Below are positions 1-54,000 of a stretch of DNA of 64,000 bases, one piece after another. Numbering within the stretch: the first letter of the stretch is position 1; each line of letters opens with the position of its first letter. Position numbers: made by a program. The stretch comes from Octopus vulgaris (Eukaryota). Where the stretch lies: contig OX597815.1 of the NCBI GenBank assembly GCA_951406725.2, positions 141,174,001 to 141,238,000 of the forward strand. The letters are read 5' to 3'.

Positions 1-3000
1 CTCTGGCTCTGTTAGTATTTCATTAAATTTCTCAACCAGCTTTTTATGTGTTCCTGTCAGGTATTTTAACCAGAAGTTGGGGATCTTATCGTGCCCGGGT
101 GCCTTCCTTTTACTTAGTCTTTGCAGTGCATGGGTGACGTCTTCAGTTGTTATAGGGGTCCAAAGTTATTCAGTTATTGAGTTCGTTATTTTGATAGAGC
201 TTTTCTGAGATCTATTATTATTATTATTATTATTATTATTATTATTATTATTATTATTATTATTATTGTTTTTTGTTGTTGTTGTTGTTGTTGTTATCAT
301 TATTATAGGCCAGATGTTGAGCAGCAAGTCGAAAGGGAAAACTTCTATATTTTATAATATATCAGAAGAGTTAAAAGGCTATGTCGATCTAAGCTGGATT
401 GAAGGAACCTGATAAGAGGAATCAATGTGTTGGTTGTAGGTGTGATACGTTACTACGCAGCAATTTTTAGAGAAGGGGAGTGTTAATTACATCAACCAAA
501 ATTTGAATCGTTCTTTATTTTTTCAACCCAGAACAGGTGATAGGAAAAGTTGTCCTCGGTGCAATTTGAACACAGAACGTAATTAACTAGAAGAAATAAT
601 AATGGTTTGAAATTTCGGCAAAAGACCAGCAGCTTTGACAGGAAGGGTCTAGTCGATACTATCAACTGCAGTACTTGACTGGTACTCCATATTGCCCAAG
701 CTAGATGGCTGAGATGAGAAGTTTAATAACAATACGTATAAATATAAGGTTATCAGATACGTATAGTTTCGTGTTTATCGAATCCGATACATAACTAATG
801 TTTTGTTTTAGTTTTTGTTTTCTCAACAGGAAATATTATAAACGAACTCACAGCCATAGGATTTAGAAATTGTATCGTGAAGTTTCGCGTGCGAATGCAG
901 TAATTTAATTTGTAGATATTCCTACTCTACCGCAGGTTACCCTAATCATAATGAAAATTCTGAATGCAGTAATAATAATGATAATAATAATAATAATAAT
1001 AATAATGATAATAATAATAATAATAATAATAATATTAATAATAATAATAATAATAATAATAATAATAATAATAATAATAATAATAATAATAATAATAATG
1101 ATGATGATGAACATGATGATATGAATGCAATAATAATAAAAATAATATTAATAATGATAGCAATATTAATCATATAAATGATAATAACAATAAAATTTGC
1201 AGTTACTAATATTGCTATTGCCGTTGTATTGCTTTTGTTATTCTTGTTGTGTCATTAATTTATGTGACGTTTGCTATGAATATCAAACCAGAAGCATTTA
1301 AAATTACAAGTCATTTTTAAAGAAATAATCGTTATAAAATAAATTTATCTTAGAGTTATTTATTTCGTTGTTTGTTTTAAGATATCCGATGAATTAGCAT
1401 TGCGGTGAAGGTGGTGGAACCTGCTATATTATCGCTAGTTCAATTAAGCAGTCTAGTCAAAAGAATTTCTTTTCATGACAGAGATCAAATTTAGGAGAAA
1501 ATAAAGTATAAATTATGTGAAAAGTTTGACAGAGGCAGTAATACTAATTTTGTATAGATCAAACTTCGTGTCTTAGTTGCTAGTTAATATGACAAATTAT
1601 TGGAAAGGTTAATATGTGGCAGCAAATTTATTTTCAACTCTCGCCTATTGTAGAATTAATTTTTTTAATGGGTGATATTTGTACAACGTAATTTTCAAAT
1701 ATTCGTTTTTCTTTGTTTATCATTTAGTCCTTCATAATGTGTTTTCTATAAAACGTTCAGATGTTATCTGAAGGATTTGAATTCATAATTCATTTTCTCA
1801 TTTTCGTACTTGTGATATTTTCACTTGTGATATTTGTCTCTAGAAAAATATCTCTTCATGAATTTCTTAATTTAAAAGAGACATATATCAGTACAGTTGA
1901 GATAAGTATATATATATCAGTAGATATATTCTATTAATATTTTGCTTCTTGTATAAACTATCACTTGGAAATTTATTCTTTATTATTACTATATATTTTA
2001 TTCTACTCAAGGCAGAAGTTCCGTAATTTTGAGGAGAGGGGGGCCAGTCGATTATATCGACACCAGTACGCAACTGGTACTTAATTTATCGACCCCGAAA
2101 TGATAAAAGGCAAAGTCGACTGCAGCGGAATTTGAACTCAGAACGTAAAGACAGAAGAAATACTGCTAAGCATTTCGCCCGGCGTGTTAACGCTTCTGCC
2201 AGCTCGCGGCCTTACTATTTTACTGAATTAAAGCGAGGAACAGGCAGAACTGTTAGCATGCCGGGAAAAACACTTAATAGCATTTCGTGCGTTTACGTCC
2301 TGAGTTCAAATTCTACCGAGATCGATTTTCCCTTTCATCCTGTCGGGTCGATACAATAAGAACCAGATGAACACTGGAGATAATTTAATGTATTTACTCC
2401 TTCCTCAAAATTTTAGCCTTGTGCAAAAGTTTGAAGCCTATGTTACGCTATATCATACACAGTAAAAATTGTAAAAAAAAAAAAATGACCAAAATATTTA
2501 TCATGCAATTACAGCGTGGAAGGTGTTTATAAGCCATTTAAGAAACACACAAAAACCGTTAGATTCACTTCAACATTTTGTGTCAAATATTTTGACAAAT
2601 TAAATTTAAATGTTGAAGTGAATCTAACTGTTTTTGAGTGTTTCTTAAATGGCTTATAGACATCATCCACGCTGCAATTGTTTTCGTTCCAGCACACGAA
2701 CTCAGATCAAGTCACTTGCTATGCAAGTACATCTCTGTAGTATTCATCATGTGTTTTATGCCTAATAAATAATATATTTATGTGAATAAATATGAAATAT
2801 AATTATTATAATATTTTATCCGGTACAAATATCCTATATTGTAATAACGATAACAGGAAGGTACTTTGAAATGGGTGTCTTTCTTAAGGATATTAGTACT
2901 GGAGGACGTTGCTTTCCACATGCATTGAATTCAAGTTGCGATACATTTTACCATCAGTTAAAACTGTTATTTCTAAAGCAATTATTACCTCTTTTCTTAC

Positions 3001-51000: not shown

Positions 51001-54000
51001 CTATACCTGCGTGAATTATTTTTGAGTATACATTGTCTGGGAGACTTTTCTTATAGTAGAGGAAATAGCTAAAATGTTTTGGCTGCTATTTCTAAACGTT
51101 CGGTGCGTGGTAAAGTAAATCATTTTACTGAACCCTAATTATATAACGTAATGTTTTAAATATACCGTAAATGGTCTTTTTACATACCGAACACTACTTG
51201 GAAAAATTATTAATTAATAATTAATTAATCTTAACCTTTTATTATTGACTATATATATATATATATATATATATATATATATATATATATATATATATAT
51301 ATATATATATATATATATATATATATATATATATATCAATGAACAAGCGCAGATATATATATATATATATATATATATATATATATATATATATCGATAT
51401 GATTGATTCAGTATTAGTTATTCGTAGACACCTGGTAAAGGGAACGTTACATAACGCACATTCTCAAAACTCTAAATTCATATCAGCTCAAAACGAAAAG
51501 CTATCTACCTTGATTTCCAGTAAAACCTAAAGAAAAGCACCCATGCAAACTAGATAAAATTCAATCTTAAGTAGTACGAAATTCTGTATTATAGGATATG
51601 CAAATGATTTCACCATACATCGTCATATAGAAGAACCTTCTGTTGTGTGACAACTTTAACGATTTACGATCATTTTGCTATTAGTTTTCAGCTCTGAAGA
51701 TTCATATCAATAAAATCAATAATATCCCTGATAAAACGGCTTTCAAAAATTTATTGAAAATATTAATCGAGAAATAGAGTGGCAAAAATCTTACTGTTTA
51801 TTGCATTTACCAGAGTGCATATATATAATAAACTCTTCCAGTTGACCACCTACAAAACTGTGAAAAACGCAACTACTCTGATTTACAAATAGTAAAACTA
51901 GTTCTCGTGTGCTCCTATGTAAATACCCATCGAATACATGTATAGCATGTAATATTTCTCTAATGCGAAAAGAGTATTTATTAATATCTAATATTATGTA
52001 AATAAAATATGTGCAGAATTACAAAAAGCATTTTCACTTATATTAACATCCATTTTATTTCCCTTAAATCTGCATCTTGTATGGGAAAAGCATTATCGAC
52101 AACCACCTGGACGAAATATTTGCACCATTATTCTTGCGGTAGCAAAAGAAATTCAGAGAGAATAATTTACACAAGTGGGATGACATCAATATAAAGAATT
52201 TTAACACGTTTTCAATACTACCGGAGAATTTTTATGAAAAGAAATACTTTTTCCTACAAGTGTTGCATAGTATCTAGTCAAAAGGAAACATAATCAATAC
52301 ATTTATAAATTACAAATACTAATGTTTCTAACTGCAATGTAGATTTTCTAGGCTCAAGGTCATTATAAAAATAATTTAAACGAAAAGAAACATATCGTTA
52401 TCATTATCATCATCATCACCATCATCATCATCATCATCATCATCATCATCATCATCATCATCATCATAATCATCATCCTCCTCCTCCTCCTCCTCCTCCT
52501 CATCATCATCATCATCATCATCATCATCATCATCATCATCATCATCATCATCATCATCATCATCATCATCATCATCGTCGTCGTCGTCGTCGTCGTCGTC
52601 ATCATCATCATCAACATTATTATTAATATTAATATTATTACTATTATTTACTTTTAATTTGCATGTTTGTTACAATACCTAACTGAGACACACCCAGCAC
52701 CCTAGGGCAAGTGATGTTACAGTATGGCTTAAAGCTTGGGGAGAGAAAGTGGTAAGAGCAGTAACGATATATCTTCGTGTAATACAGCATATTCATTTAA
52801 ATTAATAAGATTTATCTAAGGATGCTGCCAACACATGTCGGCACAATCTTTTGTATTTCTCTAAGACATGGTTCTCCAGCGATAATATCTAGATGCTTGT
52901 GACTTCCCATTCTTACATACCACAATAACAGAAACAATTCTCACCTCTCATATTGATTTTTCTTCATTTGAAACTGTAAGGTCAATTATATGGCAATTTC
53001 TATTCTCTTCATCTACAACTACTAACTCAGGCCTTCCAGCTTCTATTACTCAGTCAGTCTGAATGCTAAAGTCCTATATCTTGTATTTCTTACTTTCTTG
53101 TATTTTACATATACACACCACTTGTTAGTATATATATATATATATATATATATATATATATATATATATATATATATATATATATATAAGACTGAGGGTT
53201 TCGAATGTCCTGTCCGTGTTTATTGTATCGTCTTCTAAGAGTTATACGTTCTTGTCCATGTTGTATTTTTCTACATACCTTTATATATTATATATATATA
53301 TATATATATATATATATATATATATATATATATATATATATATATATATATATAAGAATTTTTTGCGTAATGAGATAAAAAAGAACGAGGGTTGTGTAGA
53401 TATTAGAGCAGTTATAGATAGAAGGTCTTACAGCTGCTTCCTGGATATTTATTAATTATATCCCTTCATTGGAGACGGCGTGAGAGGATGGTTAAGTAAT
53501 ATTTAATTTAGATAAGATACAAAATAGAGAGTGAGGTGGAGGACTATCTATTTTGTATCCTATCTAAATTAGCCATTATTTAACCATCCTCTCACACCGT
53601 CTCCACTGAAGGGATATAATTAACAAATATCCTGGAAACAGCTGTAAGACATTTCATCTATAAATGTTCTAATATTTACACAGCCTTGGTTTTTTAATCT
53701 CATTGCGCAAAAATTCTTATATACACACGCTGACATATGAACAACTTTGAACCCCTTATTCGCAAAATTACCGAACCTGGAACTTAACTATGGTCTGTCT
53801 ATAGCACTTATACAGCATTACCTGACACATATGGGCCTCAACGACACCATTACCTCACAAGAAAGAGTGAGAGAATGTTGCGGCGAAAGAGTATAGCAAG
53901 TATCGCCACCGTCCCCTGCTGGAGCCTCGTGGAGATTTATGTGATTTCGCTCAATAAACACCCACCACGCTTGGTCTGGGAATCGAAACATCGAACTTAT

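What the first reader, a model, noticed from the sequence alone, without database searches (positions are those of the whole stretch)
2506..53722. Recurring architecture: largely unrelated fold-back elements built from PLE-type termini, mostly at (TA)n
Seen: at least six fold-backs with mostly different sequences (2506-2680, 4586-4717, 10612-11619, 27795-28301, 50593-51152, 53351-53722). Four contain recognisable hammerhead cores, and most abut (TA)n. Known: PLE insertions often leave partial inverted terminal repeats. Inference: several PLE families share a (TA)n-associated insertion/inversion mechanism that seeds the genome with long hairpins. If transcribed, these would be dsRNA substrates for ADAR or Dicer, which matters in a lineage with extensive RNA editing.
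Basis: partly seen in the sequence, partly recalled or inferred. Interest (0 to 1): 0.75.

Follow-up and report, generated by a model that had tools for sequence, protein, structure and literature searches.

The report
Hammerhead retroelement hairpins in (TA)n repeats
Most of these DNA hairpins are inverted pairs of short, ribozyme-carrying retroelement fragments lodged in TA microsatellites, a layout already described for Penelope-like elements, so the finding is real but largely ordinary.

Summary
All six fold-backs are real hairpins (MFE z-scores -10 to -52). The set is mixed, and the hammerhead claim is overstated.

- **Hammerheads:** a structural type-I descriptor finds 3 motifs, two in FB4 (both arms) and one in the FB3 left arm. 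It found 0 in 200 dinucleotide shuffles. FB6 and FB2 hold only decayed relics. FB5 and FB1 hold none. Rfam reports no hammerhead match in any of five searches.
- **(TA)n:** 4 of 6 fold-backs, and 5 of 12 ends, lie within 12 nt of a (TA)>=6 run, against 3.95% of window positions (P=6e-5).
- **Relatedness:** FB2 and FB4 belong to one family, which also has a solo copy at 63190-63382. The inversion junction differs between the loci, which argues against fixed MITE termini.
- **Orientation:** FB4, and on weaker grounds FB2 and FB6, are head-to-head with 3' ends facing (TA)n. FB4 has a one-sided 43-nt extension. This matches published PLE insertion anatomy (PMC8557442).
- **FB3 differs:** it is a tail-to-tail nested palindrome centred on (TA)19.
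- **No PLE gene:** no GIY-YIG or PLE-type RT ORF was found in the window, so the copies are non-autonomous or truncated.

The ADAR/Dicer idea and the host lineage could not be tested.

The parts
27795..28006 (-). FB4 left arm: inverted, 5'-truncated copy. Sense strand is minus. Its 3' end abuts (TA)n at 27724-27796, and it lacks the terminal 43 nt of the right copy.
   Evidence: 212-nt arms, 99%; 3 mismatches in 212; alignment A1.
27962..28006 (-). Type-I hammerhead motif in the FB4 left arm. It faces outward, with the predicted cleavage site after 27968.
   Evidence: helix I 6 bp, CUGAUGA, helix II 5 bp, GAAA, 2-bp helix III with a tetraloop, GUA triplet. 0 hits in 200 shuffles.
28007..28343 (+). 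FB4 main copy: 83-nt unique 5' stretch (28007-28089), the 212-nt arm, then a 43-nt 3' extension (28302-28343) running up to (TA)n at 28344-28476.
   Evidence: Searches show that the spacer and the 43-nt extension are conserved in the copy at 4294-4605.
28089..28135 (+). Type-I hammerhead motif in the FB4 right arm. It faces outward, with the predicted cleavage site after 28128.
   Evidence: In one search the MFE fold (-14.7 kcal/mol, z -2.6) contains helices I and II.
4294..4652 (-). FB2 locus, left copy of the FB4 family. Sense strand is minus. Its 3' end lies next to a short (TA)5 at about 4278-4287. The position homologous to the FB4 hammerhead is decayed.
   Evidence: score 119 on the minus strand against 33 on the plus strand.
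4653..4805 (+). FB2 locus, right copy, head-to-head with the left copy. Similarity beyond about 4805 is unreliable.
   Evidence: score 141 against a shuffle maximum of 62; 4656-4837 matches 63190-63382 at 68%.
63190..63382 (+). Solo copy of the FB2/FB4 family, with no inverted partner in the window. It starts at the same family position as the FB2 right copy.
10766..11110 (+). FB3 left copy (Y). Its 5' end abuts (TA)n at 10635-10765, and its 3' end runs into the central (TC)13(TA)19.
10931..11000 (+). Hammerhead motif in the FB3 left arm, facing the centre. Core CUGAAGA, a 4-bp helix II closing a long loop with one mismatched closing pair, GAAA, a palindromic helix III segment, GUA, and a 4-bp helix I.
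   Evidence: 0 hits in 200 shuffles. Against it: the monomer fold is not stable (z +0.69).
11111..11197 (.). Centre of the FB3 palindrome: (TC)13 (TA)19 (GA)12.
11198..11475 (-). FB3 right copy, shorter than the left and mutated at the hammerhead position. Its outer end abuts (TA)n from 11476 to about 11596.
11597..11619 (-). A 23-nt inverted copy of the 3' end of the neighbouring element X. It forms the outermost layer of the FB3 palindrome and is followed by more (TA)n.
   Evidence: pair I3.
10546..10634 (+). Element X: a solo 5'-truncated 3' end whose terminus abuts (TA)n at 10635. It is homologous to 46527-46611.
   Evidence: 82% over 90 nt; 136 of 202 columns identical.
46527..46890 (-). 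Solo element of the X family with a hammerhead-like relic: one core mismatch, a long helix II and the helix III segment ACAGCUGU, with the predicted cleavage site after 46758. Its 3' end abuts (TA)7 at 46511-46524.
   Evidence: It did not pass either descriptor.
50574..51152 (.). FB5: core arms 50593-50758 / 50987-51152 with a 228-nt spacer. The left end abuts (TA)n. The right arm is followed by 97 nt (51153-51249) and then (TA)72. No hammerhead found, family unknown.
53350..53721 (.). FB6: arms 53380-53532 / 53543-53695, extending to the coordinates given here, with a 10-nt spacer. The left end abuts (TA)37 and the right end only TATA. A hammerhead-like relic at 53606-53646 (+) faces outward, and the left arm carries a worse copy.
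   Evidence: the relaxed hit is not significant (15 of 100 shuffles also hit).
2506..2680 (.). FB1: a 175-nt hairpin, single copy in the window, with no hammerhead and no (TA)n within 2 kb. Unclassified.

Best explanation
The six fold-backs do not have a single origin.

**The (TA)n-associated group.** FB4, its relative FB2, probably FB6 and possibly FB5 are pairs of short 5'-truncated copies of non-autonomous retroelements that carry hammerheads, of the Penelope-like / retrozyme kind. The two copies are joined head-to-head. Their 3' ends point outward into a (TA)n microsatellite that served as the insertion target.

**Likely mechanism (inferred, not shown).** Both copies arise in one retrotransposition event. 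Target-primed reverse transcription starts from a nick in (TA)n. Then either the second nicked strand primes on the same kind of RNA 3' end, or the reverse transcriptase snaps back on its own cDNA. Endonuclease resolution leaves one copy with an extra 3' stretch. The unique spacer is the extra 5' sequence of the longer copy.

**FB3.** It is also a hammerhead element in (TA)n, but it is a tail-to-tail nested palindrome whose axis lies in a central (TA)19. It is better explained by an inverted duplication centred on the self-complementary microsatellite, or by re-insertion of a read-through transcript next to its source.

**FB1.** An unrelated hairpin of unknown class.

**Consequence (inferred).** In a read-through transcript the ribozyme would be locked inside the long duplex. 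The transcript would then be a long dsRNA rather than a self-cleaving RNA.
For: **Shown**
- Three descriptor-positive type-I hammerheads, all inside fold-backs, with 0 hits in 200 shuffles.
- The helix III segments are palindromic or wobble-palindromic in all four motif types. Three of the four loops are strict palindromes, against 11 of 122 rows (my hand count) overall. This is the dimer-type signature described in PMC4209133.
- Both FB4 ribozymes face outward, so the 5' ends meet at the centre.
- FB4 arms differ at 3 of 212 positions, while other family copies in the window are 65-78% alike. The two arms therefore come from one event.
- The same family occurs as a fold-back with one junction (FB4), as a fold-back with another junction (FB2) and as a solo copy (63190). 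This is variable 5' truncation, not fixed termini.
- The one-sided 43-nt extension in FB4 is conserved in the 4294 copy.
- (TA)n adjacency: 5 of 12 ends within 12 nt against 3.95% expected, P=6e-5. Solo relatives also end at (TA)n: 10634/10635 and 46527/46524.
- The FB3 nesting of x, (TA)n, Y and the centre is seen.

**From the literature (passages read, PMC8557442)**
- PLE insertions show 5' truncation.
- A 30-40-bp tail is often present at one end only.
- (TA)n are preferred targets.
- The hammerhead lies near the 3' end.
Against: - No Rfam hammerhead family matched, even when only 66 nt around the FB4 motif were searched at E<=10. Of the 195 matches, the 45 lowest-scoring were not displayed.
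- The FB4 motif has A-U instead of the usual G-C at the first pair of helix II.
- The FB3 motif does not fold stably as a monomer (z +0.69).
- No GIY-YIG domain or PLE-type RT was found. Of 139 ORFs of at least 70 aa, 122 were scanned and 17 were not. Relatives of the RT fragment at 32083-32769 carry RVT_1, some with zf-RVT, and none of the 120 listed carries GIY-YIG.
- The arms could not be compared with any PLE consensus.
- FB5 has no ribozyme. The FB6 relic is not significant on its own.
- FB3 contradicts the head-to-head model.
- The one-sided 'tail' of FB4 is element sequence, so it may not be the same thing as the published tail.
- PLEs that target (CA)n also form inverted copies (PMC8557442). 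(TA)n self-complementarity is therefore not required for inversion.
Confidence: 0.6

Rival explanations
1. DNA-level palindrome formation. Ordinary single insertions next to or inside (TA)n were later turned into inverted duplications, because the self-complementary microsatellite forms hairpins or cruciforms. These promote fold-back priming or replication template switching.
For: FB3 is a nested palindrome. Its axis lies in (TA)19, and its arms include the element, the flanking (TA)n and 23 nt of a neighbouring element. A one-step retrotransposition at a single break does not predict this. The window also holds other inverted repeats unrelated to hammerheads, including a 2.8-kb pair.
Against: In FB4, FB6 and FB2 the axis is inside element sequence at a 5'-truncation point, not in (TA)n. 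The (TA)n lies at the outer ends. This is the geometry expected from priming at the 3' ends.
Confidence: 0.2
2. The fold-backs are MITEs or foldback-type DNA transposons. Their long terminal inverted repeats happen to include ribozyme-like strings, and they insert at TA dinucleotides.
For: Short palindromic units flanked by TA fit Tc1/mariner-type MITEs (recalled, not tested). FB6 is symmetric, with TA or TATA on both sides. FB1 and FB5 have no retroelement feature at all.
Against: The FB2/FB4 family has different inversion junctions at the two loci and also a solo, non-inverted copy. The FB4 arms are asymmetric, with an 83-nt unique 5' stretch and a 43-nt one-sided 3' stretch. Complete hammerheads in both FB4 arms are not expected by chance (0 of 200 shuffles). 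No transposase domain was found among the 122 ORFs scanned.
Confidence: 0.1
3. Independent insertions of the same family landed in opposite orientation in a hot-spot microsatellite, with no inversion mechanism. This is the situation of neighbouring inverted SINE pairs.
For: The 2025-2412 fold-back looks like this. It is two SINE-like units, only 68.5% alike, and one of them is 88% identical to a copy elsewhere. (TA)n tracts here hold several insertions, for example the stretch from about 10483 to 11708.
Against: The FB4 arms are about 99% identical, while other family members are 65-78% alike. In FB4, FB6 and FB2 the two copies abut directly, with no (TA)n between them.
Confidence: 0.07
4. Assembly artefact: palindromic mis-joins created by fold-back or chimeric reads, or by collapse of complex PLE insertions.
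For: PMC8557442 notes that complex PLE structures cause assembly problems. FB4 is nearly perfect.
Against: The arms carry mismatches and indels, with identities of 99% down to about 70%. The spacers are asymmetric. The fold-backs are short and internal to the window. No N runs are present.
Confidence: 0.03

Closest known systems
Penelope-like element (PLE) insertion structures, as described by Craig, Yushenova, Rodriguez and Arkhipova 2021 (PMC8557442; passages read)
   Same: Strong 5' truncation, an inverted 5'-truncated copy adjacent at the 5' end that forms inverted repeats, an extra stretch at one end only, (TA)n as insertion target, and a hammerhead motif a few hundred nt from the 3' end. 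FB4 shows all of these. FB2 and FB6 show some.
   Different: No RT/GIY-YIG ORF and no pLTR-ORF-pLTR unit in the window. The copies are 200-400 nt fragments. FB3 is tail-to-tail. Homology to an autonomous PLE was not tested.
Metazoan type-I hammerheads of PLEs and non-LTR retrozymes (Cervera and de la Pena 2014, PMC4209133; 2020, PMC7229834; passages read)
   Same: Helix I about 6 bp, helix II 4-5 bp, helix III 1-2 bp capped by a small palindromic loop, which is the dimer-type design. Unit size about 330-390 nt. GC 38-44% in FB3 and FB4.
   Different: The units are not in direct tandem arrays, so the two ribozymes of a fold-back lie on opposite strands and cannot form the active dimer. The first helix II pair in FB4 is A-U, not G-C. 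No Rfam match.
Inverted-repeat retroelement pairs and palindromic repeats as ADAR hyper-editing substrates (Porath et al. 2017, PMC5625713; Zhang et al. 2023, PMC9989829; passages read)
   Same: Nearby inverted copies of young repeats form long, nearly perfect dsRNA. Penelope is reported as massively edited in lizard, and octopus as having an exceptionally high potential for long dsRNA.
   Different: Here both arms can arise in one insertion event, so pairing does not depend on a second chance insertion. Transcription and editing of these loci were not examined.
L1 twin priming (inversion with 5' truncation; recalled, no paper read)
   Same: Both nicked target strands are used as primers, which gives an inverted 5' segment.
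   Different: Twin priming copies different parts of one RNA, so it yields no long inverted repeat. Here the same 3' region is present twice.

Membership tests
Penelope-like element (PLE) | ORF with a PLE-type RT and a GIY-YIG endonuclease | tested here: not met
   Pfam found no GIY-YIG in 122 of the 139 ORFs of at least 70 aa; 17 were not scanned. The RT ORFs carry RVT_1 plus zf-RVT, which is LINE-like. None of the 120 listed relatives of the RT fragment carries GIY-YIG. The copies would have to be non-autonomous or truncated.
Penelope-like element (PLE) | Hammerhead motif in the terminal repeat, near the 3' end | tested here: met
   Met for FB4 (both arms) and the FB3 left arm. The cleavage sites lie about 110-215 nt from the 3' ends. 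FB6, FB2 and 46527-46890 hold only relics. Not met for FB1 and FB5.
Penelope-like element (PLE) | Inverted 5'-truncated copy adjacent to the 5' end (head-to-head) | tested here: met
   FB4 is clear. FB2 shares the layout by homology. In FB6 the orientation rests on a weak relic. FB3 is the opposite, tail-to-tail.
Penelope-like element (PLE) | Insertion bias for (TA)n microsatellites | tested here: met
   5 of 12 ends lie within 12 nt of a (TA)>=6 run against 3.95% expected, P=6e-5. This covers 4 of 6 fold-backs. The solo copies at 10634 and 46527 also abut (TA)n.
Penelope-like element (PLE) | [quoted passage not shown] | tested here: inconclusive
   FB4 has a 43-nt stretch at the right end only, but it is conserved in the 4294 copy, so it is element sequence. 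FB5 has a 97-nt one-sided stretch of unknown origin.
Penelope-like element (PLE) | Sequence homology of the arms to the pLTR or 3' end of an autonomous PLE of the same genome | not testable with these tools
   No eukaryotic genome or TE consensus library was available. The open collection (genome contigs) holds only bacterial and archaeal genomes, so I did not scan it; the phage, plasmid and E. coli record sets were equally irrelevant.
Hammerhead ribozyme, type I | Conserved core (CUGANGA, GAAA, UH cleavage triplet) framed by helices I, II and III | tested here: met
   3 motifs in the window against 0 in 200 dinucleotide shuffles. The strict version finds the two FB4 motifs.
Hammerhead ribozyme, type I | Match to a curated covariance model (Rfam hammerhead families) | tested here: not met
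   No hammerhead match at gathering score. None among the 150 rows listed at E<=10 for the whole window (45 more rows not shown). None in sub-searches of 521, 401 and 66 nt.
Hammerhead ribozyme, type I | Self-cleavage | not testable with these tools
   Needs in vitro transcription of monomer and dimer constructs.
Non-LTR retrozyme | Direct tandem arrays of units of about 170-400 bp, each with a type-I hammerhead | tested here: not met
   TRF reports no array with a period above 29 nt in the window. The copies are inverted pairs or solo. Unit size and GC do fit.
MITE / foldback DNA transposon | Fixed terminal inverted repeats and a target-site duplication shared by all copies | tested here: inconclusive
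   Not met for the FB2/FB4 family, which has different junctions and a solo copy. Undecidable for FB1, FB5 and FB6, which are single copies in the window with duplications hidden by (TA)n.

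The most novel reading that the evidence does not exclude
In this genome (TA)n microsatellites act as nests. Several unrelated families of hammerhead-bearing, PLE-derived non-autonomous elements integrate there and become hairpins in the same step. Because the target is self-complementary, both nicked strands could prime on the same RNA 3' end. If the host is a cephalopod, such one-step hairpins could be a major and so far unattributed source of the exceptionally high load of long, near-perfect dsRNA and of hyper-editing reported for octopus (PMC5625713). 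That study omitted octopus from its repeat-annotation analysis.
Probability: 0.15. Interest if true: 0.55.

Novelty: new member of a known kind. Interest (0 to 1): 0.25.

Why it matters
The result shows that this recurring architecture is the published signature of Penelope-like retroelement insertion, not a new kind of element.

It also corrects the details. Only two of the six fold-backs carry verifiable ribozymes. Two supposedly unrelated fold-backs are one family. One fold-back (FB3) has the opposite geometry and needs another origin.

What remains interesting is quantitative. If such one-step hairpins are common genome-wide and are transcribed, they would supply long dsRNA without needing a second chance insertion. 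That bears on where ADAR and Dicer substrates come from in repeat-rich invertebrate genomes.

Tried and rejected
- **Rfam.** Five searches found no hammerhead family: whole window at gathering score and at E<=10, then three sub-regions. The many sub-threshold miRNA-family rows are generic hairpin and microsatellite matches. PMC6962438 gives the same caution.
- **First descriptor script.** It returned nothing because of a stem-length bug, which I fixed.
- **One-mismatch strict scan.** It added two overlapping hits at 45996 with 69-nt helix II inserts and a GTGAAGA core. I treated them as chance.
- **Other GAAAC-N4-GUH sites.** I read 3243, 24292 and 23692. None has a usable 5' core, so I rejected them.
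- **FB5.** I looked for a ribozyme in both arms and the spacer. It has only CUGAUGA and GAAA 2 nt apart. Rejected.
- **FB2.** Rejected as a ribozyme.
- **ARAGORN.** No tRNA genes found, so the tRNA-SINE reading of the 2025-2412 family rests only on my reading of a T-arm-like stretch.
- **Organism.** Two protein searches gave best hits of 44-68% identity from unnamed records. The named hits are arthropods and a coral. The lineage stays unknown.
- **Target-site duplications.** Reading them by eye was uninformative, because the flanks are (TA)n.
- **Public collections.** The only open one (genome contigs) holds bacteria and archaea and was not scanned, as it cannot hold a eukaryotic repeat. No other copy of any arm outside the window could be examined.
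- **Supplements.** I did not open the supplements of PMC8557442 (PLE consensus sequences). They could bear on membership.

Full report
**Setting.** The window is 66% A+T and has no N. It is dense in microsatellites: 95 TRF rows. There are 46 perfect (TA)>=6 runs covering 2.5% of the bases.

**Are the fold-backs real?** Yes.
- The inverted-repeat scan gives FB4 arms 27795-28006 / 28090-28301 (212 nt, 99%, 83-nt spacer), FB5 arms 50593-50758 / 50987-51152 (166 nt, 93%, 228-nt spacer) and FB6 arms 53380-53532 / 53543-53695 (153 nt, 86%, 10-nt spacer).
- BLAST of each unit against the window extends these and adds two more. FB6 is 84% over 375 nt, FB5 75% over 599, FB3 82% over 766 and FB1 82% over 183.
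- Folded as RNA, all six are far more stable than shuffles, with z from -10.3 (FB2) to -52.4 (FB4).
- For FB3 the long outer 'arms' are mostly (TA)n, which is self-complementary anyway. The informative inverted repeat is 10766-11110 against 11198-11475, plus a short outer layer described below.

**Is the list complete?** No. I masked simple repeats and compared the window with its reverse complement. This gives three more local fold-backs: 2025-2412, 6551-6804 / 8474-8719 and 16597-16703. It also gives a 2.8-kb inverted pair, 7122-9954 against 14799-17467. None of the three local ones lies near (TA)n. None holds a hammerhead. The 2025-2412 unit is two copies of a multi-copy, SINE-like family, only 68.5% alike. 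One of the two is 88% identical to a copy at 7588-7755. This pair looks like two independent insertions. Fold-backs in this window therefore have more than one source.

**Hammerheads.**
- Rfam found no hammerhead family at gathering score. There was none among the 150 listed rows at E<=10 (45 lower rows were not shown). There was none in sub-searches of FB4 (521 nt), FB6 (401 nt) or 66 nt around the FB4 motif.
- I therefore wrote a structural descriptor of the kind used in the literature. It requires CUGANGA, a helix II of at least 4 bp with at most one mismatched closing pair, GAAA, a closing pair around a tetraloop, UH, and a helix I of at least 4 bp.
- It finds three motifs: 28096-28128 (+), 28000-27968 (-) and 10931-11000 (+). 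It found none in 200 dinucleotide shuffles of the window.
- A stricter version finds the two FB4 motifs only.
- FB6 (53606-53646, +) passes only with one core mismatch, a 3-nt bulge and a 3-nt offset. That relaxed descriptor also hits 15 of 100 shuffles, so on its own it is not significant.
- A further relic with one core mismatch lies on the minus strand, with its predicted cleavage site after 46758.
- One feature the descriptor did not ask for supports authenticity. The 8-nt helix III segment is a perfect palindrome in the FB3, FB6 and 46758 motifs, and a wobble palindrome in FB4. Only 11 of 122 rows (my hand count) are palindromic among all GAAA-N-N4-N'-UH sites. Palindromic helix III is the dimer-type signature of metazoan hammerheads (PMC4209133, passages).
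- Against: the first helix II pair in FB4 is A-U rather than G-C, and the FB3 motif does not fold stably as a monomer (z +0.69).
- FB5 has only the two core strings 2 nt apart. FB1 has nothing.

**Family relations.** The right halves of the six fold-backs are unrelated: 30 comparisons, highest z 2.6. However, the FB4 main copy aligns with the minus strand at 4605-4294, score 119 against 33 for the other strand. The multiple alignment shows three things.
1. The 83-nt FB4 'spacer' and the 43 nt beyond the right arm are element sequence, conserved in the 4294 copy.
3. A third, solo copy lies at 63190-63382 and starts at the same family position as the FB2 right copy.

The position in FB2 homologous to the FB4 ribozyme is decayed. 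It is decayed in a similar way in the independent 63190 copy. The inversion junction sits at different family positions in FB4 and FB2. That is what variable 5' truncation predicts. It is not what fixed MITE termini predict.

**Orientation and ends.**
- In FB4 both ribozymes read outward. The 5' ends meet at the centre and the 3' ends face (TA)n at 27724-27796 and 28344-28476.
- The left copy is truncated further at its 5' end and lacks the last 43 nt.
- The arms differ at 3 of 212 positions, while other family copies are 65-78% alike. The two arms therefore date from one event.
- FB2 has the same layout by homology, and FB6 does if the relic is trusted.
- In FB3 the ribozyme reads toward the centre, so the copies are tail-to-tail around (TC)13(TA)19(GA)12.
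- The FB3 palindrome continues outward through the flanking (TA)n into 23 nt (11597-11619). These mirror the 3' end of a different element, X, at 10546-10634.
- X is homologous to the 3' end of the solo element at 46527-46890, which also ends at a (TA)n run.
- The stretch from about 10483 to 11708 is thus one microsatellite holding several insertions.

**(TA)n association.** Six lie within 50 nt against 7.5% (P=1e-4). At the level of fold-backs this is 4 of 6. Counting the 43-nt extension as element, both FB4 ends abut (TA)n. In the unbiased list of nine local fold-backs, 4 of 9 abut (TA)n. Those four include every locus with a descriptor-positive ribozyme.

**Coding content.** There is no GIY-YIG domain and no PLE-type ORF.
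- I scanned 118 ORFs and 4 more, out of the 139 ORFs of at least 70 aa that passed a low-complexity filter. The 17 not scanned were 8 in microsatellite regions and 9 antisense to the LINE ORFs.
- The two long ORFs at 54346-57105 and 58432-60897 (minus strand) carry RVT_1. The first also has a sub-threshold zf-RVT match.
- The RT fragment at 32083-32769 has relatives with RVT_1, some with zf-RVT. None of the 120 listed carries GIY-YIG.
- The hammerhead-bearing copies are therefore non-autonomous or truncated. Their link to PLEs rests on the ribozyme and the architecture.

**Comparison with the literature.**
- PMC8557442 (passages read) describes PLE insertions as highly 5'-truncated and often in partial tandems. 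[quoted passage not shown] They often have a 30-40-bp tail at one end only, (TA)n as preferred targets, and the hammerhead near the 3' end. The paper also says that other arrangements occur, and that the mechanism behind the tandem/inverted structures and the microsatellite bias is unknown. FB4 matches this description point by point.
- The hammerhead type (helix III of two pairs capped by a tetraloop) is described both for some PLEs (PMC4209133) and for invertebrate non-LTR retrozymes (PMC7229834). A 2026 preprint proposes that animal retrozymes derive from PLEs (10.64898/2026.07.22.740005; abstract and outline only). Retrozymes are direct tandem arrays, which are absent here.

**The dsRNA idea.**
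- It is established that inverted repeat pairs are the main ADAR hyper-editing substrates across Metazoa.
- Penelope is reported as massively edited in lizard. Octopus is reported to have an exceptionally high genomic potential for long, near-perfect dsRNA. Octopus repeats were not annotated in that study (PMC5625713; PMC9989829).
- My two searches for a paper linking PLE fold-backs with cephalopod editing found none. This is a limited search of an open-access library.
- Whether the loci here are transcribed could not be tested. The organism was not identified.
- From the fold energies I infer that in a read-through transcript the ribozyme would be sequestered in the duplex.

**Verdict.** The best reading is that the (TA)n-associated fold-backs are one-event, head-to-head pairs of truncated hammerhead retroelement copies of the PLE/retrozyme kind. 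FB3 is a microsatellite-centred nested palindrome. FB1 is unrelated. Confidence is 0.6. This is a new instance of a known kind, of modest interest.

Noticed in passing
window 2025-2412; related copies at 7583-7757, 33554-33796 and 62910-63031: A multi-copy, roughly 190-nt SINE-like family. Two units form a 68.5% fold-back just upstream of FB1. A stretch resembles a tRNA T-arm by my reading only; ARAGORN finds no tRNA.
   Followed up: partly
window 7122-9954 against 14799-17467: A large inverted repeat of about 2.8 kb (80-89% identity) with a spacer of about 4.8 kb that contains FB3 and the microsatellite nest. A further copy of one piece lies at 12795-12956.
   Followed up: no
window 41827-42858 against 46823-48271: Direct duplication at 98-100% identity, about 5 kb apart. 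Each copy holds a (TA)n run. One boundary (46823) falls inside the helix II loop of the hammerhead-like relic, so the copy at 41827 has only the 5' half. None of the ORFs scanned in the stretch between the two copies (about 42751-46596) had a Pfam hit.
   Followed up: partly
window 54346-57105 (-) and 58432-60897 (-); also 1-163: Two LINE-like RT ORFs (919 and 821 aa) in tandem, about 59% identical at the DNA level. The first 163 nt of the window match 56407-56569 at 85%. The best outside relatives are only about 50% identical.
   Followed up: partly
window 31273-32769 (+): A degraded RT spread over several frames. RVT_1 scores just below the Pfam cut-off (28.1 against 29.6 bits). Relatives are LINE-type, not PLE.
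   Followed up: yes
window 4492-4540 (-) and about 63290-63330 (+): The FB2 subfamily carries the same altered, non-functional sequence at the hammerhead position in two independent loci. This suggests the copies spread after the ribozyme was lost.
   Followed up: partly
window about 10483-11708: One long (TA)n tract holds at least a truncated element X, the FB3 pair and a 23-nt inverted fragment of X. It is a nest of insertions.
   Followed up: yes
window 11061-11242, 2508-2678 and many (TA)n or (CA)n runs: Dozens of sub-threshold Rfam miRNA-family rows (for example MIR4208, MIR6140, mir-297) fall on fold-backs and microsatellites. They are generic hairpin matches, all far below gathering score.
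   Followed up: yes
window 50538-50605: At the left edge of FB5, the terminal 8-10 nt of the arm recur within the (TA)n as a 20-nt period repeat of about 3.3 copies. This may be a remnant of aborted or repeated priming.
   Followed up: no
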